Shown in pieces: positions 18,453 to 63,211 of a stretch of 64,000 nucleotides of DNA (position 1 is the stretch's first letter; each line of letters begins with the position of its first letter). The position numbers and the translations under genes are program-made. The notes under the pieces were generated by a model. It had not been told where the DNA came from, ran no database searches, and was given only the letters and a program-made list of their open reading frames with translations. The stretch lies in IMG/VR virus record IMGVR_UViG_3300031485_000046; one strand, written 5' to 3'. Origin of the DNA: a virus.

Positions 18453-18674
18453 ATAGAAACTATGTTTGTCGTAATATATCTTGAAAACGCATCAGATTCG
18501 TTTCATACTGTGCGATTTCCTTGCTTATGGAAGCTGTTCGTTCTGTTTCAGACGTTGTTTCTATCGTCTAGAGTGAAAAAGATCGAATACCGTGCAAGGA
18601 TTTAACGTGTCATGCCATCCCATTCGGTTGTTCCCTCCGTCCTTGCGACTTTCCTATAAGGGATGGAAACCGGG

Positions 18675-18893: not shown

Positions 18894-19684
18894 TCCTTAC
18901 CCTCCTTTTTTTCTATAATTTCATCATATTCATTTTCTTTACCAGAGTTTATTATACAACGAACAGCTTCCAAATCAGCAGGAGTATCTACACTAGGTCC
19001 AACTTTTTTTGCTCTTGTTATTTCTACTTTAATGGAAAAATCATGTTCTAATATTCTGAGCTGTTCCAGTGATTCTGCTGATGCCAAAGGTGTTTGTGGC
19101 ATTTTGGCATAATAATGGATTAAGAAACGTCTAGTAAATCCATAAATTCCTATATGTCGGTAGATGGGATATACTTCTTCCGGATCTCTAATAAAAGGGA
19201 TAGGAGACCTACTGAAATATAAAGCATCTCCATTTATTCTGAATGCCACTTTTACTACCGATGGATCATTGATAGTAGCGGTATCTGTAATAAGGGCACA
19301 TATCGTAGCAGATTCCGTAGCCCTATTTTCAGTTTTATAAAATAATGATATTACTTCATCAATCATACAAGGATTAAGTAATGGTTCATCCCCTTGTATG
19401 TTTATCACTATATTATTATTAGAGAATTTTTTAGCTATTTCCACAACTCTACTAGTTCCGTTTGTATGATTTGGAGAAGTTAGCATAGCTTCTCCACCGA
19501 AATTATTTACAGCCTGCACGATTCTTTCATCGTCAGTAGCTACAATCAACCGGTCAAGTAAAGTAGATCGTGAGGCTCGCTCGTACACTCTCTGGATCAT
19601 TGTTTTTCCGCATATATCAGCTAGAGGTTTACCGGGGAGCCTTGTAGAATTGTATCTAGCGGGGATAACTCCTAAAGTTATCAT
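18890..19684 (-). CDS. kdsB: CMP-Kdo synthetase-like cytidylyltransferase (3-deoxy-manno-octulosonate cytidylyltransferase family)
   Basis: IPARYNSTRLPGKPL, VATDDE, GGE, QGDEP, ALYFSR, HIGIYGF, LEQLR, VDTPADLE match KdsB signature blocks as recalled. Confidence 0.85.
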   Translation of the reverse strand: MITLGVIPARYNSTRLPGKPLADICGKTMIQRVYERASRSTLLDRLIVATDDERIVQAVNNFGGEAMLTSPNHTNGTSRVVEIAKKFSNNNIVINIQGDEPLLNPCMIDEVISLFYKTENRATESATICALITDTATINDPSVVKVAFRINGDALYFSRSPIPFIRDPEEVYPIYRHIGIYGFTRRFLIHYYAKMPQTPLASAESLEQLRILEHDFSIKVEITRAKKVGPSVDTPADLEAVRCIINSGKENEYDEIIEKKEGKE

Positions 19685-26977: not shown

Positions 26978-27578
26978 AAACAATATCGCGGTTATAGGAC
27001 ACGGTCCTAGCACTCGTGGAAGGAAACTAGGCAGTTTCATTAACCTTTGTGATACGGTCATTCGCATGATCGAATGTGATTGGCAGGATGCAGAAGATTA
27101 CGGTAGTAAATATACGATCGGTGTATATGCTACGGGAGGATCTGACGATTTTACAAAGGTGATTGAACGAAAGCCTTCTCTTTGCTGGTGGGTGTACGTT
27201 GCGGCTGGAACCCGTCCTTCTACGGCGATGAATGATGATACAGTAGATGCTCCAGGTGTTGCGGGTCGTCCGATACGGTGGTTACGAAGAACCGTATGGG
27301 ATTGGATCGGTGATAATAAAAAGTTCTCTAGAGGTACTGCTGCCGCGATTGCGTCTATGGCGATCCTAAAACCCACTACAGTTCATTTAGTTGGGTTTGA
27401 TGATGTTGCAAGGGGTGGAATGCTGAAAGGAGCATATCATCCTCCTGAGTTGCAACAGTACCTCAAAGAACAAGGAAAGACACTTGCCAGAAGTGAAACA
27501 GACCATGATTGGAATAATGAAGGCACCGTACTCCAACGTGCCGCAGACTATTACGGAGTTGAGGTGAATTTTCTATGA
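26964..27578 (+). CDS. Sialyltransferase-like glycosyltransferase candidate 2 (paralogue)
   Basis: Motifs IAVIGHGPS, RGTAAAIASMAILKPTTVHLVGFDD, HDWNNE; RBS GGAGGCG. Confidence 0.6.
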   Translation: MVLHKNNIAVIGHGPSTRGRKLGSFINLCDTVIRMIECDWQDAEDYGSKYTIGVYATGGSDDFTKVIERKPSLCWWVYVAAGTRPSTAMNDDTVDAPGVAGRPIRWLRRTVWDWIGDNKKFSRGTAAAIASMAILKPTTVHLVGFDDVARGGMLKGAYHPPELQQYLKEQGKTLARSETDHDWNNEGTVLQRAADYYGVEVNFL

Positions 27579-28813
27579 AGACAATATCAGAGGAATATAT
27601 TCGCCTTAATTCTGAGGTACACAACCAGCGGAGAGGGTACGGTAATTCAGCCAATCGGTTTGCTAAGGACATTGGGCTTGTTTTGCATCAGTTCCACACA
27701 ATGTCTTTTCTGGATTATGGATGCGGAAAAGAATCTTTGATCCGTTGTATTACGAAGGACTATCCGTATCTTGCCCAGAGAGCAAAGTATGGAGCATACG
27801 ATCCAGCTATACCGCACCGGTCCGTTAAGCCGGAAGAGCAGTATGATATGGTTATTTCTACAGATGTTCTTGAACACATTGAACCTGAATATCTGTCAGC
27901 CGTGCTGGAAGAGATCAAAGGATATGCTAAAAAAGGCGTCTATCTGAATATCTGTATGCGACCGTCAGGAGATATTCTACCTGATGGTCGAAATGCCCAT
28001 CTGATCGTTAAAGATGCCCCGTGGTGGCGTGAAACACTATCCAAAGCGTTTGAAGGATGGGCACTGGAAGAACGGGATGTACTTGACTCTTGGCGCAATT
28101 ATACAGTAGTATTGACACCACCTAAGATTCAAAAGCCATTAAATATCGTCTGTTTCTACTGGAAAGGTACGAGTAATCGGTACCCAGGATGGGACGATGT
28201 GGATTTGGCAAAGATTTATGTCAACAATCTGTATAATGGCGTCCGTCGAAATTTGAACAAGGATTACAAGTTCATCTTGTTTTCCAATGATATTGAAGAT
28301 GGGCTGGATCCACATGTAGAGATACGAAAGTTCCAGCCTATCTCGTGGACAGGGTGCAATCCTAAGTTGTATGTGCATAGCCCAGATGCAGGATTAGAGG
28401 GAAGGGTGCTTACGTTTGATATGGATACTATCATCGTAGGAGACCTTACTAATTTTGCAGAATACGATGGGGCTTTCACTACACGGATGGAACCTGACCG
28501 AAGAAGAGTAACAGCAGGAGACCTGCTAGGATTTGAAGCAGGTGAAACGTACCAGTTATGGGAGAATTATAAGAATATCTCCAAGTATGCTGAAAAGTAT
28601 CAAGGAGATGAAAGGGAGATCTACAAACTTCTTTGGAAACATTTGCTGTACTGGCAAGAAGAAATACCCGGGCAGTTGGTTTCTTATAAAGGTGATGTTC
28701 GTCCTAATCAGAACAGACTGCCTAGAAATGCAAGAATTGTAAGTGCGCACGGTAAGCCTCGTCCGCATGAGATCAATGCGGAATGGATTAAATCGTGTTG
28801 GTGGGGAAAATGA
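27575..28813 (+). CDS. Fusion protein: N-terminal class I SAM-dependent methyltransferase, C-terminal domain of unknown (possibly transferase) function
   Basis: FLDYGCGKESL (motif I-like) and MVISTDVLEHIEP (motif II-like); C-terminal FDMDTIIVGD. Confidence 0.6.
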   Translation: MKTISEEYIRLNSEVHNQRRGYGNSANRFAKDIGLVLHQFHTMSFLDYGCGKESLIRCITKDYPYLAQRAKYGAYDPAIPHRSVKPEEQYDMVISTDVLEHIEPEYLSAVLEEIKGYAKKGVYLNICMRPSGDILPDGRNAHLIVKDAPWWRETLSKAFEGWALEERDVLDSWRNYTVVLTPPKIQKPLNIVCFYWKGTSNRYPGWDDVDLAKIYVNNLYNGVRRNLNKDYKFILFSNDIEDGLDPHVEIRKFQPISWTGCNPKLYVHSPDAGLEGRVLTFDMDTIIVGDLTNFAEYDGAFTTRMEPDRRRVTAGDLLGFEAGETYQLWENYKNISKYAEKYQGDEREIYKLLWKHLLYWQEEIPGQLVSYKGDVRPNQNRLPRNARIVSAHGKPRPHEINAEWIKSCWWGK

Positions 28814-29526
28814 AACCGTATGTAGAATCTCCCATTATCATAACAGGTTGTCCACGAAGCGGAACTAGCATCATTTCTGGGATGTTAGAAATATGTGGTG
28901 CATTTGCAGGAACTATTCCACAGCCTACGAAACACGAAACAAGAGGCATGGGAGAGAATCGGGTTATATATGAGGATGTTGTTAAACCGTATATTCAGAG
29001 TTTGCAAGCGGATCCATCTGGACAATGGCCATTGATGGATTCTGAAAAACTGATGATTCCTATCGACTGGGAATCAATGATTTCAGACGCCTTGCACAAG
29101 GATGGCTATATGGGAGGCAAATGGCTATATAAGAGTAATACTGCGGCTCTTATGTGGAAAGTGTGGTCCTACGCCTATCCTAGCGCCAAATGGGTCCTAG
29201 TACGCAGGCGTACAGGTGACATAGTTTCTTCATGTTTGCAGACCTCGTATATGAAAGCATTCAAAAATCCTGCATATCGTAAGGAAATTGGAGCGGAAAC
29301 AGAATCAGAAGCATGGATCCATTGGGTACATAAGTATGAAGAAGCCTTTGTAGGGATGTTGACTGCGGGAGTTAATTGTAAGGTTGTCTGGCCGGAAAGA
29401 TTCGTAAGAAACGATTATCAACAGTTGTATGAAGTAATTGAATGGGTAGGGCTTGAATGGAAATCTTCTGTAGCAGATTATCTAGACCCAAAGCTATGGA
29501 AGAATGAACGGAAGGAGGAGTGCTGA
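28810..29526 (+). CDS. Sulfotransferase
   Basis: IIITGCPRSGTSIISGML (5'-PSB PAPS-binding motif) and VLVRRRTGDIVSS (3'-PB-like); ATG 28810 overlaps upstream stop (ATGA). Confidence 0.7.
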   Translation: MKPYVESPIIITGCPRSGTSIISGMLEICGAFAGTIPQPTKHETRGMGENRVIYEDVVKPYIQSLQADPSGQWPLMDSEKLMIPIDWESMISDALHKDGYMGGKWLYKSNTAALMWKVWSYAYPSAKWVLVRRRTGDIVSSCLQTSYMKAFKNPAYRKEIGAETESEAWIHWVHKYEEAFVGMLTAGVNCKVVWPERFVRNDYQQLYEVIEWVGLEWKSSVADYLDPKLWKNERKEEC

Positions 29527-43930: not shown

Positions 43931-44581
43931 TTATTCTGCTACAAGAATTTCTGCAAGAGATTCATCTAGTTTATATACCGCGTCCCATAACGCATTACAA
44001 AAATCATTGAATTCCTTCATAGCGGGAGGGTTCCCTCTAAGTTTGTAAATATGTCGCCATTCTCGCATATTACCTGTAACAAGCATTTTTGTTGGAGTAC
44101 ATTCAGGCAATAGGTATTTAGCTGTATCATTCCCGTGCTTTTCTTGAATCTTTTTTACAAGCTGGGTTCCTTTATACAACCAATCCAATACTTCTGCATC
44201 TTGTTCAATAGCTTCAGGAAGTATGAACCCAATAGGATTCTTAATGATGGATTTAAGTGACCATCGTGTGCTTTGTACGGAAAAGGAAAGCAACCTATGC
44301 CGTGCAAATTGCTGAAGAAGAGCCCTAGAGATGTTAGAAACTTCCACGACGAGGACAATGTGTTCTATCACACTTTCATGACCGTCTTTGATTCGTTTAA
44401 GGACATACTGTTTTGCTGTTTCCGTATCATACCCATCTTCTTTCCAGAATACAATTAGGTCTTCATACTCATCAGTTATTGCAGGAAAAGCCTCTTGATT
44501 CACACAAATCTTAGATCCATGTAAAGCGTTTTGCAAAACAGTGGCATCTAACACTTTTACAGTCACAGGAAACTCTCTCAT
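43931..44581 (-). CDS. thyX: Flavin-dependent thymidylate synthase ThyX
   Basis: RHRLLSFSVQS matches ThyX RHR(x7)S motif; start at ATG 44579-44581 with AGAGGAG RBS. Confidence 0.85.
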   Translation of the reverse strand: MREFPVTVKVLDATVLQNALHGSKICVNQEAFPAITDEYEDLIVFWKEDGYDTETAKQYVLKRIKDGHESVIEHIVLVVEVSNISRALLQQFARHRLLSFSVQSTRWSLKSIIKNPIGFILPEAIEQDAEVLDWLYKGTQLVKKIQEKHGNDTAKYLLPECTPTKMLVTGNMREWRHIYKLRGNPPAMKEFNDFCNALWDAVYKLDESLAEILVAE

Positions 44582-44749
44582 AAAATCATCACTCCTCTTA
44601 CGTAAATACATACGTATCCTTGGCGAATCCTTGCGTCAGGATCGCATTCTTTTAGAAAAGAGATATAGAATCATGTCTAAACTGTTTTTTATTGCAGGAA
44701 AGCGTATTATCCGTCAGAATGACGTGTGCCCATCCTGCGATGTTAAATC

Positions 44750-45265
44750 CTAATAAGCACCCGACGTAAAACAGGAAGAAGCTATGCATATCAAATCTCC
44801 TATTGTTCCAGAGTTTTCTATAATATGGTCAAAACAGAATCCATCTAATTCCGTTTCTGACGGATGATTCTTCTGTTCTTCTGTAAGACCATTATCATAG
44901 TTAGGACGTTCGATACGAACCGTAATCACTTTGTATCCATTCTTTTTTCCCCATTGTCGCATAATCTGGATCTCATTCAAATACCGGCAGTCTGTTATTG
45001 CTATTTGATTTGGATAACTGTTAGTCTCCAGCATGCGACAGACAAGATTCACCCAAGTATCTCGATTATATTCCCTTACGGTAGAAGCAAGATCCTGTAG
45101 AAATTTACGACCTCGTTCATCTTTGTGCCCATTCCAACCCAACTTGATAGCAAAATCCTTAAGCCGACCAGCAAAGGAATATTTATTGTACCCATCTAAT
45201 CCTAACGCAAATGTATCTTTACCGGCTCTAGCTTTACCAGATATAAGAATGATCGTTTTATTCAT
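44750..45265 (-). CDS. Deoxynucleoside monophosphate kinase (P-loop)
   Basis: ISGKARAGKDT P-loop; size and context. Confidence 0.75.
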   Translation of the reverse strand: MNKTIILISGKARAGKDTFALGLDGYNKYSFAGRLKDFAIKLGWNGHKDERGRKFLQDLASTVREYNRDTWVNLVCRMLETNSYPNQIAITDCRYLNEIQIMRQWGKKNGYKVITVRIERPNYDNGLTEEQKNHPSETELDGFCFDHIIENSGTIGDLICIASSCFTSGAY

Positions 45266-45407
45266 CCGAAGTATTACCTTTTTCTACAGAAGGTAAGGGT
45301 TCATTTGTTTGTGCTGGACTAAAACATTTAGCCAATGTGGGTAGTCCATCTTCTTCTGCTACTTGCCGCATAATTTCCCGCAATTTCTGAGGCATGATTC
45401 TTGCCAT
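45258..45407 (-). CDS. Small ORF (49 aa)
   Basis: ATG 45405-45407 with GTGAGGT RBS-like sequence. Confidence 0.35.
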   Translation of the reverse strand: MARIMPQKLREIMRQVAEEDGLPTLAKCFSPAQTNEPLPSVEKGNTSDE

Positions 45408-45412
45408 GCTGA

Positions 45413-45829
45413 TTACCTCACTTTCGTCAATAACATAGGAATATATACTTTTACTTTTCTTCTTCCCCACCGTAGTGCCTCTTGCCGAGTATGGAAACAA
45501 ATATCTATCTTGTTTCCAGTTATTCTTTTTCCTCTATCATCTACCCTGCGCCATCCAATGCCTTGCAAATGTACCCATGTACCAAATGGAATATATTTTG
45601 GTGCGGCAATTGTAACATCAGGTGTCGTTCGATTCCCGCTTGCTGTTACTGTAGGATCTCCAGAATAACACATACCTTTAATTGCTTTAGGATCTAATGG
45701 AGCGTATCCTGTGGCAACCATTTCAATTGTCTTAGATAAAGGATACGAAAAAACGGGATGTACTGAAAGTAACATCCCGAAACCAAACATCATACTACCG
45801 AGAAGGAGGATCTTCTTTATCGACATCAT
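45413..45829 (-). CDS. Secreted 3D-domain protein (putative cell-wall hydrolase)
   Basis: N-terminal signal peptide; 3D-domain pattern TASG...PFGT...DRG...GNKIDI. Confidence 0.7.
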   Translation of the reverse strand: MMSIKKILLLGSMMFGFGMLLSVHPVFSYPLSKTIEMVATGYAPLDPKAIKGMCYSGDPTVTASGNRTTPDVTIAAPKYIPFGTWVHLQGIGWRRVDDRGKRITGNKIDICFHTRQEALRWGRRKVKVYIPMLLTKVR

Positions 45830-45956
45830 TCCAAAACTGGGTCATTTTCTTACCTACCCAAATGTACATTACGATAAGAGCAATAATGTACAATCCGATA
45901 AGTGTGCCGATAACCGTCAACAACCAAAATATCCACATAGGTAGATATATTGTCAT
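45795..45956 (-). CDS. Small membrane protein
   Basis: Two hydrophobic helices; starts 1 nt after dUTPase stop. Confidence 0.4.
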   Translation of the reverse strand: MTIYLPMWIFWLLTVIGTLIGLYIIALIVMYIWVGKKMTQFWNDVDKEDPPSR

Positions 45957-45957
45957 A

Positions 45958-46428
45958 TCAGACACCTGTACTTCCAAAACCACCCGCACCTCTATCAGTA
46001 TCCGTGAGGGAATTTACATACTCATTAAGCGCATGAACTACTGGAACCACAACAGCTTGGGCGATTCTGTCACCATGCTCAATAATAATGTCTGGATCAG
46101 TTATCCACCCCGCATGTTCAATCAATACCTTTATTTCACCGCGGTAATCAGAATCAATAGTGCCTGGGGCGTTTGGAATCCTTAGTTTTGTAGTAAATGA
46201 CAGTCCTGATCTTGGGCGTATTTGCATTTCACAGCCTTCAGGTATTTCTACTGCAAGTCCTGTGGGAATAGCTTTAATCTGCCCAGGTTTTACCGTTATA
46301 TTCCCGTCAGGGTACAGGAAAGGATCTGCTAGACATGCTTTTAGATCCATCCCGCTTGCTCCTACAGACATATACTTAGGTGAAGTAGCTGCAGGGTCAA
46401 GCAGTTTCCACTTCAGGATAACAGTCAT
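45958..46428 (-). CDS. dut: dUTP diphosphatase
   Basis: Motifs RSGL, GTIDSDYRGE, GAGGFGSTG. Confidence 0.85.
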   Translation of the reverse strand: MTVILKWKLLDPAATSPKYMSVGASGMDLKACLADPFLYPDGNITVKPGQIKAIPTGLAVEIPEGCEMQIRPRSGLSFTTKLRIPNAPGTIDSDYRGEIKVLIEHAGWITDPDIIIEHGDRIAQAVVVPVVHALNEYVNSLTDTDRGAGGFGSTGV

Positions 46429-46439
46429 TATACTCCTCC

Positions 46440-47090
46440 TTATCTAATCTGGAATGTTTTTGTAAATCCGTTTCTACTTTTGCACCATCCTACTAGCCAA
46501 TAACAAAATGGTGTATCACTCAATGCGATCAATATTTTAACAACCCACTGGCTCATTATCATGGAAAATAAAACAGGCATGGGCATAATTCCATAAAATG
46601 CAATAACGATAAAGATTACCGTATCGAAAAACTGGCTAGATATGGTACCTACGTTATTTCTAAGCCACAAATGTTTTCCATGTGTTAAATCCTTTAGCTT
46701 ATGAAATACCCATACATCATTCAGCTGGCTGACAAGATAAGCAGTCAATGAAGCTCCAGTAATCCTACCAACTCTTCCAAAGAGTTCTGTAAAGAATTCC
46801 TGCCTCTCATAGAAAGGAGCGGCGGGAAGCATAACAGCGATAAACCCTAGTGACATAGCAAGCAGACTACAAAAGAATCCTGCCCATACAACCCTTGTAA
46901 CTACTTTCTTACCCCATACCTCTCCAATCACATCAGTCATAAGAAAAGTAATTGGGTATGCGATAACACCTGCTGGTAGAATGAAATCCCCAAACATAAA
47001 CAGTTTTGTTGCCAATACGTTTGCAGTTACCAACGATGTCACAAATACTGCAACCAGTGTGATGAATGTTCTTGGAATCTTGAGTTCCAT
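46440..47090 (-). CDS. YhhQ/VUT-family queuosine-precursor transporter
   Basis: Multi-pass membrane protein; YPITFLMTDVIGEVWG, LTAYLVSQLNDVWVFHKLK, FFDTVIFIVIAF align with recalled E. coli YhhQ blocks. Confidence 0.7.
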   Translation of the reverse strand: MELKIPRTFITLVAVFVTSLVTANVLATKLFMFGDFILPAGVIAYPITFLMTDVIGEVWGKKVVTRVVWAGFFCSLLAMSLGFIAVMLPAAPFYERQEFFTELFGRVGRITGASLTAYLVSQLNDVWVFHKLKDLTHGKHLWLRNNVGTISSQFFDTVIFIVIAFYGIMPMPVLFSMIMSQWVVKILIALSDTPFCYWLVGWCKSRNGFTKTFQIR

Positions 47091-55510: not shown

Positions 55511-57328
55511 TTATTTGAAATGGTAATCTCCCTTCTCATTCCAAGAACAATCAACAGGACACACTTCTGCTTCTACTTCCAAGGGTACATTTATCCAGCT
55601 CCAGTGCTTAGGTAAATCTTCACAAGTAATCCTATGAACAGTAGACGCAACCATATCTAATTCGTCAGGATGCACATCCAACACCATTGCGTCATGTATC
55701 TGTCCGATCAATCTGGATTTCCAGTTCTGTTCTCTGGATATCTTGTCAACCTGAATGAACGACCATAACAGACAATGAAATGCACTTCCCTGAATAGGAA
55801 TATTTATGCATTCATTCCTACGCATGATACCAGAACATCTGAATCCTGTGTACATGCTCACATACCCGTTTTTTTGATACCCTTCCCACCACTTGTCTTT
55901 CCAACGATTATACACTTTGAATCGCCTATTCCAAAAATCATCTTCAATTTTCTTGATATGGTCCGTAAACTTATCGAAGGAATCTAGCTTGTTTGCAATC
56001 AAGTGGTCGGAAATATGACCTCCGTCATGCTCAATGCCTTCACCTTTCTTCCATTTGCCTTTAGATAATCCGCACCATTTACAAGCAATATTTTCGGCGC
56101 AGTTTACATAATAGTCACCATAGAACTGCGGAAATACAAATCCGTTCTTTGCCGCTTGCCTCATCATTTTATGCGATGGTATACTCTTGTCTAACTTATC
56201 AAGTACAAATATCTGACAAGCCATATCACCGTGCATATCCGATGAAGGATCTTCAATGTACTTTCTCATAACAGGGTCATGATGGTAACACTCGCTGATT
56301 CTTACTTCCACTCCTGAATAGTCTATTTCAAGTAGCTGGTGACCTGGCTTAGGAAATATCGCTTTGCGAGTAATCTCCATAGCCTCTTTATCTCGCTTGG
56401 GAATATTTTGGAAGTTTATCCGCTCCGATGAATTATGTACGCATATTTGGTTCACGATAAAATTATGATATTTTTCCACTTCAATATCGTACACATCTAC
56501 CGGCTCATCAAGGTACTCTATTGTGTGGTCTGTATGATTAGACAATACCTTATTAGAAAGACGTGTATCTGATAACGCCCTCGCTTGCACGTATGTTCCA
56601 TCTATTAGACGGATTTTGTGCTCAGGTGTCACATCTAAGTATCCTTTCCCACCTCCACCGTTTATAGAGTAATGGATTCGCACAACTTTCTTATGTCCTG
56701 TTTTGCCAGCCCATATAACTTTTTGAATAGAAGGGCGGAGTTTATCGTCAAAACAATACACATAATCACCCTTCTTTACATTTTCAATAGGGGTCCCTTC
56801 TGGTTGTGCTTCAAAATCTTTCATTACCAATACTTTAGATCCTTTAGCTACACAAGAGCGAAATGTCTTTACTGTATGCAAATTAAAGAAAGGATGCAAG
56901 TATCCGCCTACTTGTTCTCTTATGAAAGCATCCAGATACGTATCTCGCACCTTTTTCAATTTGCGCATTTCCAAAATCCACTTTATCTCAGGAATATCAA
57001 TCTGGGAAAGTGCTTCATCGTCTGTTGCACCCTTGCCAGATGGTGTCAACTTTGCAGGGGTGATTTTCCTAACATTGTACAAAAGGTGTGCTAACTGCCA
57101 ATTAGAATCAGGGTTAGCCTTAGCACCATACACCTTCGTCCAATGCATATAGAATTTAGTATCCCTGAGTTTTCTATCCAATCGTGCTATTTTTTTGTCA
57201 AGGTACTCTTTTTTCTTTAAGCAGTAATCAACATCAATCCGCATTCCTTCTTGTTCTGCCCTCGCAAAAGCAAGGATGCCATCTTGCAATAGCTGATATG
57301 CTTCAGGAAGATTAGGTGTCAGTTGCAT
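55511..57328 (-). CDS. DNA polymerase family A, polymerase subunit (intein-containing)
   Basis: NFQNIP, motif A DYSGVEVRI, motif B RQAAKNGFVFPQFYG, motif C QIHDAMV; start at ATG 57326-57328 with AAGGAGGG RBS. Confidence 0.9.
   Translation of the reverse strand: MQLTPNLPEAYQLLQDGILAFARAEQEGMRIDVDYCLKKKEYLDKKIARLDRKLRDTKFYMHWTKVYGAKANPDSNWQLAHLLYNVRKITPAKLTPSGKGATDDEALSQIDIPEIKWILEMRKLKKVRDTYLDAFIREQVGGYLHPFFNLHTVKTFRSCVAKGSKVLVMKDFEAQPEGTPIENVKKGDYVYCFDDKLRPSIQKVIWAGKTGHKKVVRIHYSINGGGGKGYLDVTPEHKIRLIDGTYVQARALSDTRLSNKVLSNHTDHTIEYLDEPVDVYDIEVEKYHNFIVNQICVHNSSERINFQNIPKRDKEAMEITRKAIFPKPGHQLLEIDYSGVEVRISECYHHDPVMRKYIEDPSSDMHGDMACQIFVLDKLDKSIPSHKMMRQAAKNGFVFPQFYGDYYVNCAENIACKWCGLSKGKWKKGEGIEHDGGHISDHLIANKLDSFDKFTDHIKKIEDDFWNRRFKVYNRWKDKWWEGYQKNGYVSMYTGFRCSGIMRRNECINIPIQGSAFHCLLWSFIQVDKISREQNWKSRLIGQIHDAMVLDVHPDELDMVASTVHRITCEDLPKHWSWINVPLEVEAEVCPVDCSWNEKGDYHFK
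56432..56854 (-). mobile_element. Mini-intein (141 aa) inserted in polymerase
   Basis: Begins Cys (CVAKGSKV), TPEH block B, ends YHNFIVNQICVHN followed by Ser; flanking exteins reconstitute HTVKTFRS-SERINFQNIP. Confidence 0.8.
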
Positions 57329-58590
57329 CCTATGTACCCTCCTTGCTGAATCCATCGCATTTGTTTAGATGCTAACCGGTAAGTGAACAAACTATCCATA
57401 CCACAGTATATCAATAGTTTATTCCAAATATCAGATCCTACAGGAACATCAAGCAATTTGTTCATGGAATTGCTATCTTTATCATCCGCCCCTTTAAGAT
57501 ATGGAGCGACCTCATCATCATACCCTGCTACACCAAAATTGATATAGGTTTGTATCTTCAATCCTGTGATGTCTGGTCTGTTATCAAGAATGTGTGTAGC
57601 CAACATAGTATCCCATATCCAGTTTTTTACTTCATACCCCAGAATATTTTGTGTCCATGTGTGTTCAAACTTCAGATTTTGGGCAATCTTTCCTATCTTG
57701 TCTGATTGCAAAATTTCCTTAAGCAGTCTATTTCCTTTCTTACTTTTAGGCATCCCAAAAACTATTGCATCTTCAGGATTACTACACATGGACATGCAGA
57801 TGATTTTGTGCTTGCTTGTATCATGCGGTTTAAGGCCCGTCGTTTCATAATCAATAGCAATAGAAAACGGAAACTTTCTAGAAAGAAACTCTTCAAAAAT
57901 TCCTACTAGCTCACTTTCTGATTTTACTATCTTGATAGCCGTCATTTCATCTGGATATGTTTGCATAGACATGTCCACTGTATTTAATGCCCTGTCAAGG
58001 TCCTGTTTCCATACTGTTCGATATTCCTGTGCATCTTGTTTTTCTACAAACTCTGGATGAAATATCGGGCAGATCCACGTATTGTATTTCCTATCTGGAA
58101 TAGTAAATCCTCTCCATTTATTCATTCCACCTAAATTCTTTGTCCAGATAGAACCTATCACGGAGTTTAATGCTAGTTCACCTACAAGAATTATCACTTT
58201 AGGTTTATACTGCTCAATAGTAGATAGCACTCTTCGTCGGCAACATTGAACTTCTTTTGTCCACGGATTGGTGGTTTCCTTGGACCCTGAAGCATAGCAA
58301 GACAAAGCAAAGAGATTCAGACAGTCTTTGAACAAATCAACGCCTCTACGTTCAAATTCTCGCCTAAGCGTTGTTCCAAATCTGTCTTGCCACGGTTTGC
58401 CTACTCGATCATCTCTACTGCTTGGCATATCACCAATGACCATTATTTTCTTTTCAAATTCCCCGAATGGTGCCATTCTAGGAGACGAAATATCTTTATA
58501 CAACCCACAAGAAGCGCAAGAGAAAGCCTTATTACCACTAGGCCTAGTTTTAGATTTAGTTTCTTCTACTGAAAAGAATCCACTAGCCAT
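57319..58590 (-). CDS. DNA polymerase A accessory subunit: UDG-like domain plus 3'-5' exonuclease domain
   Basis: N-terminal CASCG and IMVIGDMPS (family-4 UDG-like, variant motif); Exo I IDYETTGL; separate ORF overlapping pol subunit by 10 nt. Confidence 0.85.
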   Translation of the reverse strand: MASGFFSVEETKSKTRPSGNKAFSCASCGLYKDISSPRMAPFGEFEKKIMVIGDMPSSRDDRVGKPWQDRFGTTLRREFERRGVDLFKDCLNLFALSCYASGSKETTNPWTKEVQCCRRRVLSTIEQYKPKVIILVGELALNSVIGSIWTKNLGGMNKWRGFTIPDRKYNTWICPIFHPEFVEKQDAQEYRTVWKQDLDRALNTVDMSMQTYPDEMTAIKIVKSESELVGIFEEFLSRKFPFSIAIDYETTGLKPHDTSKHKIICMSMCSNPEDAIVFGMPKSKKGNRLLKEILQSDKIGKIAQNLKFEHTWTQNILGYEVKNWIWDTMLATHILDNRPDITGLKIQTYINFGVAGYDDEVAPYLKGADDKDSNSMNKLLDVPVGSDIWNKLLIYCGMDSLFTYRLASKQMRWIQQGGYIGCN

Positions 58591-58594
58591 CTTA

Positions 58595-59602
58595 CTAACC
58601 TTTCATTTCTAGAACGCCAACATACTCCCAATTATCTCCTATGAACTTGATAGCGTTTTCACCAAGAATGCATTTTTTAAGCATTTTACTTACATCCTTA
58701 AGAAGTTCAGGACGAATAGTAAATTTCTTTTCCTCACCTTTATATTTCAGATTCATCTCTTCTTCAAACCAGCCAACTTCAGACTGACCACGAATAATCA
58801 TGCGTTTGGGCTTGATAGTTATTGTTACAGCATTACTTTCTGCTTCACTGGAAAAGATAGACGCACGGTCTAACACCTCTTCAATAGCTCTAGGCAATTC
58901 AAAATCCGCACCCTGCACATCCATATATTTCGACACATCTGGAAATGTATCTCCGAAGAAAGTTCGGCAAGAATACTCCGTACCTTTCTCAGTCTTGAAA
59001 TGAATCCACCCGTGCCCTTCTGCAATATGTGTGGGTACACATCCATTCAATCTCTTTATAGTGCTTGCTGGCAAAAGAAACGTAGACACAGGCATCTTTT
59101 CAGTTAACTTGTACACCATTATTCTATAACTGTCAGACGCTTCAACGGAACCTTTTTCTGTCACATTTACACAAGTAATGATCGGACGGCTCATATCATT
59201 GGAACAAGCAAAGGAAACAAATTTAAGCGCCTTCATAAGACCTTCAGGTACTTTCTTCCATTTGCTTTTCTCACCAATCGCTTCTAGAGGCATCCGTATC
59301 TTTTCTTGAAGAGTAAGTCCTGCTTTAGCTTTACCTGCTTTCATGCGAACCTCAGAACCATTTGCCTCTATTTCTACATCATTGGTTTTCATTTTGCACA
59401 GCACCTGATAAAACTCGTCAGCCTTGATAGCACCCTCAAGCCCATCTAATCCTTCCACAGGATGGGACACACTTATTTCGTCATTGAATGTCATTACTTT
59501 CCCATCCTTAAAAGCAAAGCAGGTAGACTGTTCAATGTGCTCCTTAGACGCAAGACCGGGCTTCACTATTTCAAGAGCTTCCAGAATATCTTCCCTATTC
59601 AT
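58595..59602 (-). CDS. Putative sliding clamp (DnaN-like)
   Basis: Size and position between polymerase and other replication genes; weak pattern similarity. Confidence 0.5.
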   Translation of the reverse strand: MNREDILEALEIVKPGLASKEHIEQSTCFAFKDGKVMTFNDEISVSHPVEGLDGLEGAIKADEFYQVLCKMKTNDVEIEANGSEVRMKAGKAKAGLTLQEKIRMPLEAIGEKSKWKKVPEGLMKALKFVSFACSNDMSRPIITCVNVTEKGSVEASDSYRIMVYKLTEKMPVSTFLLPASTIKRLNGCVPTHIAEGHGWIHFKTEKGTEYSCRTFFGDTFPDVSKYMDVQGADFELPRAIEEVLDRASIFSSEAESNAVTITIKPKRMIIRGQSEVGWFEEEMNLKYKGEEKKFTIRPELLKDVSKMLKKCILGENAIKFIGDNWEYVGVLEMKG

Positions 59603-60189
59603 ATTATATCCACCCCTTTTGCCCTATTTCGTTTTACCTGCCGATGTATAAGAAATGCAAACTGTTTATACATGTTAATAAAATTATACCCAACATGCTT
59701 TAGTTTGCCTTTCTGTATTTCCCACGGAGTGCATATCCTATCTGCTTTCTCCCATCGCATGTCAAGTACATATTTATCAAAAGGAATAAAATCGTATCGT
59801 TCCGCCCAATAAGAAGACATAAGCCCATTATTCAGAACAAGTACACAAAAATGGATGTCGTATTTACTGCATTTATTATACAATTCCTCACAACTATGCA
59901 TTGTCTTGGGCAGATGCAGTCTAGGGTAATTACGAAGCTGGGAGTAAGACTGCCTTATCCAGAATTTTACTGGAATTGTTGTCTGTTCATTTTTTAGTCC
60001 TACATCCACAATTAAACCAATCCCTGAGAACATGTTTTGCGTCTTACCGGGTAATTCACACCGCAACGGACTCATAGGCATATTAACTAATTTTTCAACA
60101 TACCTGAGAACCATGCCGTTGTACTTATTTATATCTTCCTGCGGATTTCTTCCCTTAGTGTCTGATTCTACCTTGAACATCGGTTCCAT
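59599..60189 (-). CDS. Hypothetical protein adjacent to DpdA-like gene
   Basis: 196-codon ORF. Confidence 0.6.
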   Translation of the reverse strand: MEPMFKVESDTKGRNPQEDINKYNGMVLRYVEKLVNMPMSPLRCELPGKTQNMFSGIGLIVDVGLKNEQTTIPVKFWIRQSYSQLRNYPRLHLPKTMHSCEELYNKCSKYDIHFCVLVLNNGLMSSYWAERYDFIPFDKYVLDMRWEKADRICTPWEIQKGKLKHVGYNFINMYKQFAFLIHRQVKRNRAKGVDII

Positions 60190-60204: not shown

Positions 60205-61176
60205 TTATATAGTGAATAATCCTTTGCTTACTTGGAATTGAACTCCTTTGCGATATTCATTCACCCATTGCTCTAATCCTAGAATGTATCGGATGTTAAT
60301 TTCACAACGAACATCAAAGGATTGAATCTCATCATACGTGTACCCATCATCTTCAATCTGTTTTAATTTCCGAGGTGTAAGTACACCCATTCCTTTACTA
60401 GACCGTTGCTTCGATACACAAAACACCATCGGTTGCTTTGAATAATCAGGATTCTTGAATCCACCGATAGGGTACATGATAGAACCCCACGCGGCAACTA
60501 TTCTCCAAGTAGCGGCATCAGCACTAGTAAAAGGTAGCGTTTTCAGCACGGGCAACATCCATACTGCAAATCCGTGTGTTTTAACACGGATTCTATTTAT
60601 ATGGATGTAAGAAAATACTGACCGCATCCAAGATAGCCTAGATTGGACACTCATATCGTTTGCAGGTGACACTCCGATATAGTCAGTAAGTTCTACCATT
60701 TTGTGCAACCATTCCCAATCTTCTCCTTGATGGAAGACATGAATAGGAGTGATCCCTGCATCTTTCATCCTAAGAAGATTTTCGTATCCTTTCGCGGCCG
60801 CTGTATTGATAATTTTCTTATTCTCCGCAGTCTTCACTCGATTGAGATGTGTAGAAGTACCAGGAGAACCGGGGATCACATCGAGGTTGACTACCCTCAA
60901 CTTTTTATTATCATCCGCCGCTATTTGGATTGCCTCTTTAGCATAACTAATGTAGGCGTCAATGGGAATAGAATGACCTTTAGCCCATGCTGAAAACGCA
61001 CCTGAATCAAGAATGATGTTTCCATTTAATGTAGGAACTTGTCTGCACCATTCTTTAAGCTGTTTTGGATAGAGATAAGAAACCAGTCTGTTCGTAATCC
61101 GCCTGTTGAGTTCCTTACCGCGTTCTTCCTTAGGATTAAAAACAGGACCGGCAAAATACAAACGGACTGGCTTCAT
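60205..61176 (-). CDS. dpdA: DpdA-like tRNA-guanine transglycosylase-family protein (7-deazaguanine DNA transglycosylase candidate)
   Basis: ILDSGAF motif resembling TGT catalytic DSGGFQ; no zinc subdomain; adjacent to queF and queC. Confidence 0.65.
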   Translation of the reverse strand: MKPVRLYFAGPVFNPKEERGKELNRRITNRLVSYLYPKQLKEWCRQVPTLNGNIILDSGAFSAWAKGHSIPIDAYISYAKEAIQIAADDNKKLRVVNLDVIPGSPGTSTHLNRVKTAENKKIINTAAAKGYENLLRMKDAGITPIHVFHQGEDWEWLHKMVELTDYIGVSPANDMSVQSRLSWMRSVFSYIHINRIRVKTHGFAVWMLPVLKTLPFTSADAATWRIVAAWGSIMYPIGGFKNPDYSKQPMVFCVSKQRSSKGMGVLTPRKLKQIEDDGYTYDEIQSFDVRCEINIRYILGLEQWVNEYRKGVQFQVSKGLFTI

Positions 61177-61178
61177 TT

Positions 61179-61604
61179 TCAGTTACCTGTTCCGTCGTAC
61201 TCGGCAATCACCGAAATATCAGTACCACCTCTGCGATTGAAATTAGCCTCTATTCGCATGTGGTACGGTTTGCAAGCGTTCGACAGATCGTCCAGTATTT
61301 TGTTTGTAACAGACTCCATAAACGCTCCGTGCTGACGATATGCTCCCATGTATATCTTGAGTGCTTTCGTTTCCAAACAAAAATCCTTTGGAAAGTATCG
61401 AATCGTGATAGTGCCAAAATCAGGATTTCCTGTACGCGGACACAGACTGGAAAATTCCGTGAATACGAACTCCGTGGCGTATTGCCTGTCTTTGCACGGA
61501 TTATCAAATACTTCAAGAAGAGCTGGATCTGGATTATTGTACCTGTCGTACGGTACGACTGTTCCGAGGTTTTTCAGATGGTCTACATTCACTTTTCTAT
61601 CCAT
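61179..61604 (-). CDS. queF: NADPH-dependent 7-cyano-7-deazaguanine reductase QueF
   Basis: EFSSLCPRTGNPDFGT (catalytic Cys motif) and ETKALKIYM (QueF motif); start ATG 61602-61604 with GAGGAGGG RBS. Confidence 0.85.
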   Translation of the reverse strand: MDRKVNVDHLKNLGTVVPYDRYNNPDPALLEVFDNPCKDRQYATEFVFTEFSSLCPRTGNPDFGTITIRYFPKDFCLETKALKIYMGAYRQHGAFMESVTNKILDDLSNACKPYHMRIEANFNRRGGTDISVIAEYDGTGN

Positions 61605-62292
61605 TGTTTGCACCCTCCTCATAGAATACTGGGTCGATCAGATTGTTTTCTGCAAAGGCCTCAAGGCGTTCATAACAACTTCCACATTTTCCGCAAGGAT
61701 TCGGTTGGTTCTTGTAACAAGTTCTTGTAAGGTGATATGGTGCGTTATTTGCAATACCATACTGCACTATCTGACTTTTAGACATGTGAAGGAACGGTGC
61801 AAGTATATTCACATTTCTATCCGTACCAAGATAAATCGCTGTATCCATTGCTTTATGAAATTCTGGGCGACAATCAGGGTAAATAGCATGATCGCCTCTA
61901 TGAATTCCTATAGCAATATTCTCTATACCTTTTGACCACGCCATACCGGCTAGGATCGACAGGAACACTAGATTACGAGCAGGTACCACCGTCTGACTCA
62001 TATTCGATGATTCATAGTGTCCTTCCGGTATTTCTCCACCGCTTAGAAGCAGACTAGATTCCATTCCAGTAAATGCTCCGGACAGGTCTACAACTTCGTA
62101 GGTCAATTCGCAAGGAACGGCAGACACATAATATTTCAATACTGCGTCTGCCGCTCTTCGTTCGTACACATTGTGTTTGCTACCGTACTGGAAATTTACA
62201 CAATGGATTTTCTTGAATTCCTTGCGAATAAGCCAAGCAAGAACTGTTGCAGAATCCAGTCCTCCTGAGAAAGAAAGGACTGCGGAACGCAT
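61597..62292 (-). CDS. queC: 7-cyano-7-deazaguanine synthase QueC
   Basis: PP-loop SFSGGLDS; C-terminal CGKCGSC; start at ATG 62290-62292 (longer ORF-track N-terminus rejected). Confidence 0.85.
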   Translation of the reverse strand: MRSAVLSFSGGLDSATVLAWLIRKEFKKIHCVNFQYGSKHNVYERRAADAVLKYYVSAVPCELTYEVVDLSGAFTGMESSLLLSGGEIPEGHYESSNMSQTVVPARNLVFLSILAGMAWSKGIENIAIGIHRGDHAIYPDCRPEFHKAMDTAIYLGTDRNVNILAPFLHMSKSQIVQYGIANNAPYHLTRTCYKNQPNPCGKCGSCYERLEAFAENNLIDPVFYEEGANNG

Positions 62293-62293: not shown

Positions 62294-63211
62294 TTACTTC
62301 TTCTTTCCAGCCTTCTTGCCAGCTTTCGCTTCCTTAGCCGGAGCGGTCTTTGCAGGCGCTTCCTTCTTTGCAGAAGCTTTCTTTTCCGCCATTTCTGCCT
62401 TCGCCTCCTTCTTTTTAGAAGATTTACTACCACCATCGTGCTTCACGATTTCCTTAGTGATCTTACTGCCTTTCTCACACTTGATATCCGTGAACTTCAC
62501 GATGTTGCCATCTTCCTTGTCAATGTAGATAAGCACAGGGAAGCGGCAATATTTAGGATTAGTCCCATCAGAAAGAATTGTAGAAAGAGCGGCGATGGTT
62601 GCGTCGGGGAACTGCTTTGCCGCAAGTTCGATCAGATCCTTTTTGCTGTACCGACCCTCATTGATAAGGTCGATAAAAAATTCGATCCTTTTGGCAGTCT
62701 TATTGCCACCAAATATCTCATCCTTCGTTTTCGTGGGCTTATCAGATTTTGCAGGCTTTTCTGCCTTCGGAGCCTTAGCAGGCTTTTCTTCCTTGGCTTT
62801 ACTCTTGCCCTTCTTAGGAATAGGAAGTACCTCTATTTCGTCTTCCTCTTCTTCCTCTACATCGTCACCGTCTTCGACATCTTCGTCCTCATCGCTTTCG
62901 TCCCCATCTTCCCCTTCCTCGTTGACCCCTTCATCGTCTTCGTCTTCATCGTCAGCTTCTTCGTCCCCTTCGACTTCTTCCTCATCCGCATCCTCCTCGT
63001 CGGCATCCTCTTCCTCTTCATCAGCATACTTAGCCTGAATCTGTGCAAGAATATCCATCGTTTCCTCGGAAAGTCCATCCTCTTCGCTTACAGCTTCAGA
63101 AGCCTCAAGCAGTTCAGCTTCCAGTTCGTCAGTACCGAGCTTTACATCAATGGGAGGCTCGATAATAGTATTAATCTCCTTAGCCGCCTTAACCAGTTCA
63201 CTTTTCTTCAT
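62294..63211 (-). CDS. Hypothetical protein with long acidic (D/E) and lysine-rich low-complexity tracts
   Basis: RBS TAGGAGGG; 305 codons. Confidence 0.6.
   Translation of the reverse strand: MKKSELVKAAKEINTIIEPPIDVKLGTDELEAELLEASEAVSEEDGLSEETMDILAQIQAKYADEEEEDADEEDADEEEVEGDEEADDEDEDDEGVNEEGEDGDESDEDEDVEDGDDVEEEEEDEIEVLPIPKKGKSKAKEEKPAKAPKAEKPAKSDKPTKTKDEIFGGNKTAKRIEFFIDLINEGRYSKKDLIELAAKQFPDATIAALSTILSDGTNPKYCRFPVLIYIDKEDGNIVKFTDIKCEKGSKITKEIVKHDGGSKSSKKKEAKAEMAEKKASAKKEAPAKTAPAKEAKAGKKAGKKK

What the first reader, a model, noticed from the sequence alone, without database searches (positions are those of the whole stretch)
60205..62292. 7-deazaguanine DNA-modification module (DpdA-like, QueF, QueC)
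QueC (PP-loop SFSGGLDS, CGKCGSC) and QueF (catalytic Cys motif, ETKALKIYM) are clear; the adjacent 323-aa protein has a TGT-like ILDSGAF motif without the tRNA-binding zinc subdomain, as expected for DpdA DNA transglycosylases. The presence of QueF suggests preQ1 (aminomethyl) rather than preQ0 as the inserted base. FolE, QueD and QueE are not in the window, so the early pathway is host-supplied or encoded off-window.
Basis: partly seen in the sequence, partly recalled or inferred. Interest (0 to 1): 0.75.

Follow-up and report, generated by a model that had tools for sequence, protein, structure and literature searches.

The report
Phage preQ1 DNA-modification gene set
A 64.6-kb uncultured tailed phage carries four genes (a precursor importer, QueC, QueF and a DNA-guanine transglycosylase) that most likely swap some guanines in its DNA for the modified base preQ1; this anti-restriction trick is already documented in other phages, so the case is a sound but fairly ordinary new example.

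Summary
Three tightly packed minus-strand genes encode QueC (61597-62292), a unimodular QueF (61179-61604/61622) and a 323-aa DpdA-type transglycosylase (60205-61176).

- **Missing early pathway.** The window is all but 611 nt of a circular 64,611-bp genome. FolE, QueD and QueE are absent from the whole genome, so they are not merely off-window.
- **Missed gene.** A fourth pathway gene lies 13 kb away: a YhhQ queuosine-precursor transporter (46440-47090).
- **Reduced lineage.** Most relatives of this DpdA clade carry the full pathway next to QueF-DpdA-clamp.
- **Possible specificity signature.** The window DpdA has a GxSPAND loop where preQ0-inserting DpdA1 enzymes (9g-, CAjan- and Iggy-like) have GGM/LVG. 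Across 124 relatives the loop tracks QueF presence (81:2 versus 1:18).

This is a new member of a known kind and of moderate interest. Chemical proof by LC-MS is still lacking.

The parts
60205..61176 (-). DpdA-type DNA-guanine transglycosylase, 323 aa, closest to phage subfamily DpdA1. Putative active-site residues are D57 (DSG), D99, Q150-G151 and D220. The beta6 loop is G168-V-S-P-A-N-D174.
61179..61622 (-). Unimodular QueF (NADPH-dependent preQ0 reductase giving preQ1). The likely start is at 61604 (141 aa).
   Evidence: PF14489 at 4.5e-29 and TIGR03139 at 143 bits against a cutoff of 86.9. B. subtilis QueF 4f8b at 1e-23, with the Cys55, Asp62, Glu78-motif and Glu97 equivalents conserved and His96 replaced by Met. 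41% identity to Dp-1 QueF.
61597..62292 (-). QueC (7-cyano-7-deazaguanine synthase, CDG to preQ0), 231 aa.
   Evidence: PF06508 at 5.8e-56 and TIGR00364 at 170.9 bits against a cutoff of 150.3. PDB QueC 2pg3 at 2.2e-27, with the SGGxDS loop and four Zn cysteines aligned.
46440..47090 (-). YhhQ-family queuosine-precursor (preQ0/preQ1) transporter, 216 aa. It lies 13 kb from the module, next to the dUTPase, ThyX and dNMP-kinase genes.
   Evidence: Pfam Vut_1 at 181.5 bits. TIGR00697 at 164 bits against a cutoff of 50.95. Phage precedents sit beside DpdA in CDKM15 and MS1. In six viral contigs (L052, L059, L065, L071, L084, L087) YhhQ lies directly upstream of DpdA.
59599..60189 (-). 196-aa lineage-specific ORF inserted between DpdA and the sliding clamp. 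Its function is unknown and its membership of the pathway is unproven.
   Evidence: No Pfam, NCBIfam, PHROG or PADLOC hit. No match in cultured phages. Only 11 homologues, all at 57% identity or more, and all in the window's own lineage. AlphaFold2 pLDDT 41.5, so unusable.

Best explanation
The phage replaces a fraction of the guanines in its own double-stranded DNA with 7-aminomethyl-7-deazaguanine (dPreQ1), after replication. The proposed steps are:

1. **Precursor supply.** The host's queuosine pathway (FolE, QueD, QueE) provides 7-carboxy-7-deazaguanine. The phage YhhQ transporter also imports free preQ0 or preQ1.
2. **QueC.** Phage QueC converts CDG to preQ0.
3. **QueF.** Phage QueF reduces free preQ0 to preQ1 using NADPH.
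4. **DpdA.** The DpdA1-type transglycosylase is expressed from the replication operon, between the helicase and the clamp and polymerase. It exchanges guanine in DNA for the preQ1 base through an Asp nucleophile, as TGT enzymes do.

The likely benefit is resistance to host restriction enzymes.

What is shown here: the gene identities, the fold, conservation of catalytic and family-defining residues, absence of the early pathway from the genome, and the shared loop motif with dPreQ1 phages. What is inferred: the substrate (preQ1), DNA as the target, the extent and sequence context of modification, and the protective role.
For: **Gene identities.**
- Gene assignments.

**Relatives.**
- The window DpdA is homologous to that of Dp-1 (E 3e-22). 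Dp-1 carries 3389 dPreQ1 per 10^6 nt (PMC6884629).
- It is homologous to phiSM DpdA1 (E 6e-24). phiSM carries dPreQ1 and mdPreQ1 (PMC10516641).
- Phage QueFs complement an E. coli queF deletion, and a phage DpdA (VH7D DpdA2) inserts the free preQ1 base (PMC10516641).

**Residues and loop motif.**
- The window QueF keeps Cys55, Asp62, Glu97 and the Glu78 NADPH motif.
- The DpdA loop G168VSPAND174 is identical in type to Dp-1, phiSM and Flasso (GISPAND).
- The loop differs from the 9g-like phage JenP1 (TLGGLVG), the CAjan-like phage Seurat (TIGGMVG) and Iggy (TIGGMVG). In these three lineages preQ0 is the base inserted (PMC6884629, PMC10484667).
- Among 124 relatives, SPxND goes with QueF 81:2 and non-SPxND 1:18 (Fisher 8e-17). 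After collapsing to clusters at 50% identity the counts are 24:1 versus 1:11.

**Genome context.**
- The genome closes to 64,611 bp.
- HMMs built from the clade's own FolE, QueD and QueE find nothing in it.
- DpdA-clamp-polymerase synteny is shared with Dp-1, Flasso, JenP1, Seurat and Iggy.
Against: - There is no chemical evidence. Nobody has analysed this phage's DNA.
- phiSM DpdA1 was inactive when expressed in E. coli. The only direct proof that a phage DpdA inserts free preQ1 comes from subfamily DpdA2 (PMC10516641).
- The window QueF has Met at the position of B. subtilis His96 and lacks the protective Cys99/Cys53. Its catalytic competence is therefore inferred, although the Met variant is conserved across a whole QueF subclade, including phages with full pathways.
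- The SPAND-QueF association could partly reflect shared ancestry. One of the two patterns used to collect viral loci contained SPAND.
- Mapping the SPAND loop onto the TGT GGLAVGE / bDpdA G206-G207-M208 pocket rests on strand order in the model and motif resemblance. It does not rest on a residue-level superposition, and profile comparison with E. coli TGT aligned only the DSG motif.
- The host is unknown, so availability of CDG is assumed.
Confidence: 0.7

Rival explanations
1. DpdA inserts preQ0, the ancestral DpdA substrate. Either QueF reduces it afterwards on the DNA, or QueF serves only the host tRNA queuosine pool. The DNA would then end up as dPreQ0 or a mixture.
For: All DpdAs characterised before 2023 insert preQ0 (PMC6884629, PMC10164549). 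VH7D DpdA2 is promiscuous and inserts preQ0 and CDG at lower efficiency (PMC10516641). No DpdA1 has been shown in vitro to use preQ1.
Against: The window QueF is of the bacterial free-base type, with the NADPH motif. Phage QueFs did not align with the tRNA-acting QueF-L (PMC10516641). Dp-1, with the same DpdA loop, has dPreQ1 and no detectable dPreQ0 (PMC6884629). The loop motif separates cleanly from the preQ0 inserters.
Confidence: 0.12
2. dPreQ1 is only an intermediate. An unrecognised phage enzyme then decorates the aminomethyl group, giving a known (methyl, formyl) or new derivative. Candidates are the lineage-specific 196-aa ORF beside DpdA, or the methyltransferase-like and sulfotransferase-like genes at 27575-29526.
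For: mdPreQ1 and fdPreQ1 exist in Cellulophaga and Flavobacterium phages (PMC10516641). The 196-aa ORF is inserted exactly between DpdA and the clamp only in this lineage, and it has many invariant polar residues.
Against: There is no homologue of DpdM (DUF3109, phiSM gp53) in the window. No formyltransferase or PTPS-like (DpdN, DpdL) Pfam hit occurs anywhere in the genome. The 196-aa protein has no detectable fold or family. The methyltransferase and sulfotransferase genes sit in the virion module.
Confidence: 0.1
3. The genes boost or hijack host tRNA queuosine modification, acting as a translation-tuning auxiliary metabolic module. The 323-aa protein would be a divergent tRNA transglycosylase, and the DNA would stay unmodified.
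For: 48 phages encode preQ0-pathway genes without DpdA and were proposed to boost Q-tRNA (PMC6884629). Database annotations call these proteins 'queuine tRNA-ribosyltransferase'.
Against: The best structural match is the DNA enzyme DpdA. There is no zinc motif, and the protein is about 50 residues shorter than bacterial TGT. Its homologues in Dp-1, phiSM, CAjan, 9g and Iggy modify DNA (PMC6884629, PMC10516641, PMC10484667). The gene lies between the replicative helicase and the clamp and polymerase.
Confidence: 0.05

Closest known systems
Streptococcus phage Dp-1 (and MS1) QueF-QueC-QueD-QueE-FolE-QueT-DpdA cluster, with dPreQ1 in DNA (PMC6884629)
   Same: The DpdA is homologous (27-29% identity over 95%) and has the same GxSPAND loop and no zinc site. 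QueF is unimodular (41% identity) and QueC is 38% identical. Dp-1 also encodes a precursor transporter and places the cluster next to the DnaN clamp.
   Different: Dp-1 encodes the complete pathway from GTP. The window phage lacks FolE, QueD and QueE. The transporter is the ECF-type QueT in Dp-1 but YhhQ here, and here it is not adjacent to the module. The window QueF has Met instead of His96.
Cellulophaga phage phiSM DpdA1 system, giving dPreQ1 and mdPreQ1 (PMC10516641)
   Same: It gives the best local DpdA similarity (34.8% identity, E 6e-24). It shares the GISPAND loop and has QueF and QueC flanking DpdA.
   Different: phiSM has the full pathway plus the DpdM methyltransferase (DUF3109) and a ParB-like gene. 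None of these is found in the window. The phiSM DpdA is shorter (240 aa).
Queuovirinae and Iggyvirus DpdA1 systems (9g/JenP1 giving dG+; CAjan/Seurat and Iggy giving dPreQ0)
   Same: The same DpdA family (23-26% identity, E 1e-15) and the same DpdA-clamp-DNA polymerase synteny.
   Different: They have no QueF. They carry the full FolE/QueD/QueE/QueC (or Gat-QueC) set. The beta6 loop is T(I/L)GG(M/L)VG rather than GVSPAND, and the insertion after the LD(V/G)I motif is shorter.
Bacterial DpdA of the Dpd restriction-modification system (PDB 7UI4; PMC10164549)
   Different: Only 13% identity and no sequence-level hit. bDpdA is 413 aa with four insertions and a CXCX2CX22H zinc site, needs the DpdB ATPase, and inserts preQ0 at low frequency. 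No DpdB or DpdC is present here.
DpdA-only or transporter-only phages ('third group', PMC6884629)
   Same: They depend on host-made or imported 7-deazaguanine precursors. Some encode YhhQ.
   Different: The window phage keeps the last two biosynthetic steps, QueC and QueF. It is therefore intermediate between full-pathway and DpdA-only phages. Its sister lineage L007-L010 keeps QueF only.

Membership tests
DpdA (DNA 7-deazaguanine transglycosylase), phage subfamily DpdA1 | TGT/DpdA-type (beta/alpha)8 barrel fold | tested here: met
DpdA (DNA 7-deazaguanine transglycosylase), phage subfamily DpdA1 | Sequence homology to experimentally validated phage DpdA1 proteins | tested here: met
   tblastn gives phiSM 6e-24, Dp-1 3e-22, Iggy 5e-16, and JenP1 and Seurat 4-5e-15. 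PHROG 887 at 1e-41. No Pfam or NCBIfam model matches.
DpdA (DNA 7-deazaguanine transglycosylase), phage subfamily DpdA1 | Conserved catalytic aspartates (TGT Asp102/Asp280; bDpdA D95, D130, D256) | tested here: inconclusive
   D57, D99 and D220 are invariant in 57 homologues. They follow strands 52-57, 91-96 and 218-221 of the model. D57 in ILDSGAF aligns with E. coli TGT D89 in LTDSGGF. The D99 and D220 equivalences are inferred from strand order only, with no residue-level superposition available.
DpdA (DNA 7-deazaguanine transglycosylase), phage subfamily DpdA1 | Genomic linkage to 7-deazaguanine synthesis genes | tested here: met
   QueC-QueF-DpdA are contiguous. 81 of 124 relatives have QueF in the same locus.
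DpdA (DNA 7-deazaguanine transglycosylase), phage subfamily DpdA1 | Exchange of guanine in DNA for a 7-deazaguanine base | not testable with these tools
   This requires LC-MS/MS of phage DNA or heterologous expression.
Bacterial DpdA / tRNA-guanine transglycosylase (TGT) | Structural zinc site CXCX2CX22H | tested here: not met
   The protein has only three Cys (44, 253, 291) and no CxCxxC. The Dp-1 DpdA likewise has one Cys. The protein is therefore not filed as bDpdA or TGT.
QueF (NADPH-dependent preQ0 reductase), unimodular | Cys55, Asp62, Glu97 and the QueF motif E(S/L)K(S/A)hK(L/Y)(Y/F/W) including Glu78 (definition in PMC5372742) | tested here: met
   Alignment to 4f8b shows SLCPRTGNPDF (Cys, Asp), ETKALKIY (Thr at motif position 2) and FME (Glu). 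TIGR03139 gives 143 bits against a cutoff of 86.9. One difference is His96 replaced by Met, and there is no Cys99 or Cys53.
QueC (preQ0 synthase) | PP-loop SGGxDS, four zinc-binding Cys, and an equivalog HMM score above cutoff | tested here: met
   SFSGGLDS and C-x8-C-x2-C-x2-C align to 2pg3 and 3bl5. TIGR00364 gives 170.9 bits against a cutoff of 150.3. Sequence alone cannot separate it from the proposed ADG-stopping QueC*.
YhhQ / Vut_1 queuosine-precursor transporter | Full-length match to the equivalog model | tested here: met
   TIGR00697 gives 164 bits against a cutoff of 50.95, covering 4-195 of 201 model positions. Pfam PF02592 gives 181.5 bits. Substrate range was not tested.
dPreQ1-decorating enzymes DpdM, DpdN and DpdL | Homologue of DUF3109 DpdM, a formyltransferase DpdN or a PTPS-like DpdL in the genome | tested here: not met
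   phiSM gp53 (DpdM) has no tblastn hit in the window. No such Pfam family appears among the genes of the genome. The QueD HMM finds nothing.

The most novel reading that the evidence does not exclude
The beta6-loop motif of DpdA1 enzymes may be the determinant of which 7-deazaguanine is put into DNA. The loop reads GxSP(A/x)ND in QueF-linked and transporter-only phages and GG(M/L)VG in preQ0 phages. Asn173 and Asp174 would replace the Gly-Gly-Met/Leu backbone pocket to accept the charged aminomethyl group of preQ1. If so, this window's reduced system (YhhQ + QueC + QueF + DpdA, with no GTP-to-CDG steps) marks a lineage that has shifted from self-sufficient synthesis to scavenging host or environmental precursors. 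The loop would then let dPreQ1 and dPreQ0 phages be told apart from sequence alone across hundreds of uncultured phages. The adjacent lineage-specific 196-aa ORF might add a further step that has not been described.
Probability: 0.35. Interest if true: 0.55.

Novelty: new member of a known kind. Interest (0 to 1): 0.35.

Why it matters
7-deazaguanine DNA modifications protect phages from restriction enzymes and Cas9, and they interfere with sequencing and cloning. This phage extends the dPreQ1-type system into an uncultured siphovirus clade: 764 database homologues, none among the 120 listed carrying a Pfam domain or a functional name.

It also shows step-wise loss of the pathway. Relatives carry the full set, this phage carries QueC + QueF + YhhQ, and the sister lineage carries QueF only. 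That pattern speaks to how far phages lean on host queuosine metabolism or on free precursors in the environment.

The most useful by-product is a testable sequence signature, SPAND versus GGM/LVG, which may predict preQ1 versus preQ0 insertion by DpdA1 enzymes. I found no description of this signature in the papers I read (PMC6884629, PMC10516641, PMC10164549, PMC10484667).

Tried and rejected
- **Nucleotide search.** A nucleotide search of the module against 50,697 phage records found no match.
- **Sequence search against solved structures.** Neither the single sequence nor the profile found TGT or DpdA. The link needed fold comparison.
- **hhalign of the DpdA family against E. coli TGT.** It aligned only the DSG motif (probability 2%). 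The catalytic mapping beyond D57 therefore stays inferred.
- **The 196-aa ORF.** It has no family hit in four libraries and no phage match. It has only 11 close homologues, and its structure model is unusable (pLDDT 41.5). I ran no further search on it.
- **preQ1 riboswitch or other RNA element near the module or YhhQ.** None found.
- **tRNA genes.** None found.
- **Promoter and terminator scan.** Counts were no higher than in shuffled sequence.
- **Host assignment from genomes carrying DpdA relatives.** The hits are mostly short MAG contigs from many phyla, probably mis-binned phage, so they are uninformative.
- **False QueF calls.** The tblastn 'QueF' hits in loci L043 and L085 turned out to be FolE (CEHH motif). 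I excluded them.
- **Off-window FolE/QueD/QueE.** This idea was rejected once the genome was closed into a circle.
Full report
**The observation.** The three ORFs exist exactly as described, all on the minus strand.
- The 323-aa protein lies at 60205-61176.
- QueF lies at 61179-61622. The more likely start is 61604, which gives the 141 aa used by an independent gene caller.
- QueC lies at 61597-62292.

The DNA shows tight packing. QueC starts 1 nt after the upstream stop. The QueF ATG overlaps the QueC stop in ATGGATAG. The DpdA ATG lies 2 nt after the QueF TGA. The quoted motifs are all present: SFSGGLDS, CGKCGSC, SLCPRTGNPDF, ETKALKIY and ILDSGAF.

**QueC and QueF.** Both pass curated cut-offs.
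- QueC scores 170.9 bits on TIGR00364 (cutoff 150.3) and 5.8e-56 on Pfam.
- QueF scores 143 bits on TIGR03139 (cutoff 86.9) and 4.5e-29 on Pfam.
- Against solved structures, QueC aligns end to end with 2pg3 and 3bl5, including the PP-loop and the four zinc cysteines.
- QueF aligns with B. subtilis QueF 4f8b (1e-23).
- The four features that PMC5372742 uses to define the QueF family are all present: Cys55, Asp62, Glu97 and the NADPH motif containing Glu78.

Two differences stand out in QueF. Met replaces His96 (HGAFMES against HGDFHED), and the protective Cys99/Cys53 is missing. The Met is not a private mutation. It characterises a whole subclade of phage QueFs, including phages with complete pathways. 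I therefore read it as a tolerated variant and flag it as untested.

**The 323-aa protein.**
- No Pfam, NCBIfam, PADLOC or PDB sequence search recognises it.
- It matches PHROG 887 (1e-41).
- By tblastn it matches 175 cultured-phage records at 23-35% identity. These include Cellulophaga phiSM, Streptococcus Dp-1 and MS1, Bacillus Flasso, Pseudomonas Iggy, and the 9g-like and CAjan-like coliphages, several of them annotated DpdA.
- An AlphaFold2 model built on 57 homologues is confident (pLDDT 92.1).
- Foldseek against viral models returns phage 'queuosine tRNA-ribosyltransferases' with TM 0.6-0.77.
- D57, D99 and D220 are invariant and sit after strands 3, 4 and 8 of the barrel. D57 aligns with the catalytic Asp of E. 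coli TGT.
- The protein has three cysteines and no CxCxxC zinc motif. Dp-1 DpdA has one cysteine. Bacterial DpdA, by contrast, keeps the zinc site (PMC10164549).

**Where the rest of the pathway is.** A Logan contig (SRR34859213_1977, 60,630 bp) is 100% identical to the window. It joins window position 1 to position 64000 through 611 nt that lie inside the dnaB gene. Conversely, the window bridges the two ends of that contig (window 14887-18867). The genome is therefore a 64,611-bp circle, or a circularly permuted linear molecule, and the window is 99% of it.

Several searches found no FolE, QueD or QueE anywhere in the genome:
- precomputed Pfam hits for all called genes;
- my Pfam and NCBIfam scans of the uncovered stretch;
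- tblastn with the Dp-1, Flasso and phiSM enzymes;
- HMMs built from this clade's own FolE (78 sequences), QueD (39) and QueE (23), run against every ORF of 30 aa or more. The only weak hit was FolE against QueF itself, and both are T-fold proteins.

A fourth pathway gene does turn up at 46440-47090 (minus strand). It is a YhhQ queuosine-precursor transporter (Pfam Vut_1 181.5 bits; TIGR00697 164 bits against 50.95). Only 12 of 50,697 phage records have such a gene. In Clostridium phage CDKM15 and Streptococcus phage MS1 it lies beside DpdA.

**Relatives.**
- The big protein database holds 764 homologues. None of the 120 listed carries a Pfam domain or a functional name.
- I examined 79 viral contigs and 34 genome or MAG contigs carrying relatives. 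The usual layout is QueD-QueE ... QueC-FolE-QueF-DpdA-clamp, which is a complete pathway.
- The window's own lineage (L011-L014, 96-99% DpdA identity) has QueC-QueF-DpdA-196aa-clamp.
- A sister lineage (71% identity, L007-L010) has only QueF-DpdA-193aa-clamp.
- Six viral contigs (L052, L059, L065, L071, L084, L087) have just YhhQ-DpdA.

The window phage is thus a reduced form. It should depend on host CDG, on imported preQ0 or preQ1, or on both. PMC6884629 already raised this idea for DpdA-only phages.

**preQ1 or preQ0?** Published work establishes three points.
- Dp-1 DNA contains dPreQ1 and no dPreQ0 (PMC6884629).
- phiSM contains dPreQ1 and mdPreQ1 (PMC10516641).
- Phage QueFs act on the free base, and VH7D DpdA2 inserts free preQ1 (PMC10516641).

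I aligned the window DpdA with characterised enzymes. After strand 6 it reads G168-V-S-P-A-N-D174.
- Dp-1, phiSM and Flasso read GISPAND.
- JenP1 (9g-like, preQ0 then G+) reads TLGGLVG.
- Seurat (CAjan-like, dPreQ0) reads TIGGMVG.
- Iggy (dPreQ0, PMC10484667) reads TIGGMVG.

The GG(M/L) version resembles the G206-G207-M208 of bacterial DpdA and the GGLAVGE of TGT. Those motifs form the pocket for the 7-substituent (PMC10164549). This positional equivalence is my inference from strand order.

Across 124 relatives the motif tracks QueF.

| Loop type | QueF present | QueC or FolE present, no QueF |
|---|---|---|
| SPxND | 81 | 2 |
| non-SPxND | 1 | 18 |

Fisher's test gives 8e-17. After collapsing to clusters at 50% identity the counts are 24:1 against 1:11, plus one mixed cluster. 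Nine transporter-only loci also have SPxND.

Two caveats apply. Relatedness inflates the statistic. One of the two search patterns used on viral contigs contained SPAND, although the non-SPAND sequences were collected by the other pattern. Taken together, preQ1 is the best-supported inserted base.

**Further decoration.**
- No DpdM (DUF3109) homologue is present.
- No formyltransferase or PTPS-like protein is present.
- The 196-aa ORF between DpdA and the clamp is confined to this lineage. It has no recognisable family and could not be modelled. Its role is open.

**Comparison and verdict.** This is a DpdA1-type 7-deazaguanine DNA-modification system of the dPreQ1 branch, as in Dp-1 and phiSM. 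It sits in the same replication-module position, before the clamp and polymerase, as in Queuovirinae and Iggyvirus.

It differs from those systems in three ways:
- it has lost the GTP-to-CDG steps;
- it carries a distal YhhQ;
- its QueF has the His96-to-Met change.

Interest is moderate (0.35). The chemistry and the gene logic were published in 2019-2023. The loop signature and the graded pathway loss are useful and testable additions.

Noticed in passing
window 55511-57355 (-): The family-A DNA polymerase gene is interrupted by a mini-intein (CVAKG...VHN|S) inserted just before the SSERINFQNIP motif. Pfam Intein_splicing scores 36.4 bits against a cutoff of 35.8. The 71%-related lineage has an uninterrupted 463-aa polymerase.
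   Followed up: partly
L012:7133-7483 region (IMGVR_UViG_3300028241_000475); also L027/L034, L064, L078: Some relatives, including one whose DpdA is 98% identical to the window's, have QueF split by a roughly 330-aa intein. The intein carries an HNH-like endonuclease motif and is inserted immediately before the catalytic cysteine (SL|C...HN|CP), so the catalytic Cys is the +1 extein residue. The window QueF has no intein.
   Followed up: partly
window 18890-19684 (-): The phage encodes a CMP-Kdo synthetase (KdsB; NF003952 at 287 bits). This lipopolysaccharide-pathway auxiliary gene implies a diderm host. The closest named homologues (56-64% identity) are from Synergistota: Synergistaceae, Aminivibrio and Aminobacterium.
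   Followed up: partly
window 1 and 64000; window 14887-18867: The window ends are joined by 611 nt of dnaB in an identical public contig, giving a circular map of 64,611 bp. That contig in turn lacks window 14887-18867. This stretch is low in G+C (0.33-0.35), holds only small ORFs, and has no family hits or tRNAs.
   Followed up: partly
window 61179-61604 (-), QueF residue equivalent to B. subtilis His96: Met replaces His96, and neither protective cysteine (Cys99 or Cys53) is present. The FME variant is shared by a whole subclade of phage QueFs linked to this DpdA clade. The functional consequence is unknown.
   Followed up: partly
window 62294-63211 (-); compare L125:8214-8822 (phiSM gp55): The 305-aa protein just upstream of QueC has a long Asp/Glu-rich stretch and a Lys/Ala/Glu-rich, histone-H1-like tail. 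In Cellulophaga phage phiSM a similarly Lys/Ala-rich low-complexity protein sits next to QueF. This may be a coincidence or a DNA-binding partner.
   Followed up: no
window 57319-58590 (-): A single 423-aa protein fuses a uracil-DNA-glycosylase-superfamily domain (1.9e-13) to a 3'-5' exonuclease domain (1.9e-12). It is encoded just upstream of, and overlapping, the polymerase gene, so the polymerase's proofreading domain is a separate polypeptide.
   Followed up: no
window 27575-28813 and 28795-29526 (+): A methyltransferase-like gene (Methyltransf_23, weak) and a sulfotransferase-like gene (Sulfotransfer_3) lie inside the head-tail structural module. NCBIfam gave only marginal hits to the first, including a pseudaminic-acid-associated methylase (E 0.004), and none to the second. 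This may reflect virion protein or glycan modification.
   Followed up: no
window 43931-47090 (-): YhhQ sits in a nucleotide-metabolism cluster with dUTPase (45958-46428), a dNMP-kinase-like gene and ThyX (43931-44611). The precursor importer is therefore grouped with nucleotide-supply genes rather than with the modification genes.
   Followed up: no
DpdA residues 168-174 (window 60655-60675) and relatives L007-L128: The loop motif GxSP(A/x)ND versus GG(M/L)VG in DpdA1 enzymes separates QueF-linked (preQ1) systems from QueF-less (preQ0) systems. This includes the experimentally characterised phages Dp-1 and phiSM on one side and the 9g-like, CAjan-like and Iggy phages on the other.
   Followed up: yes
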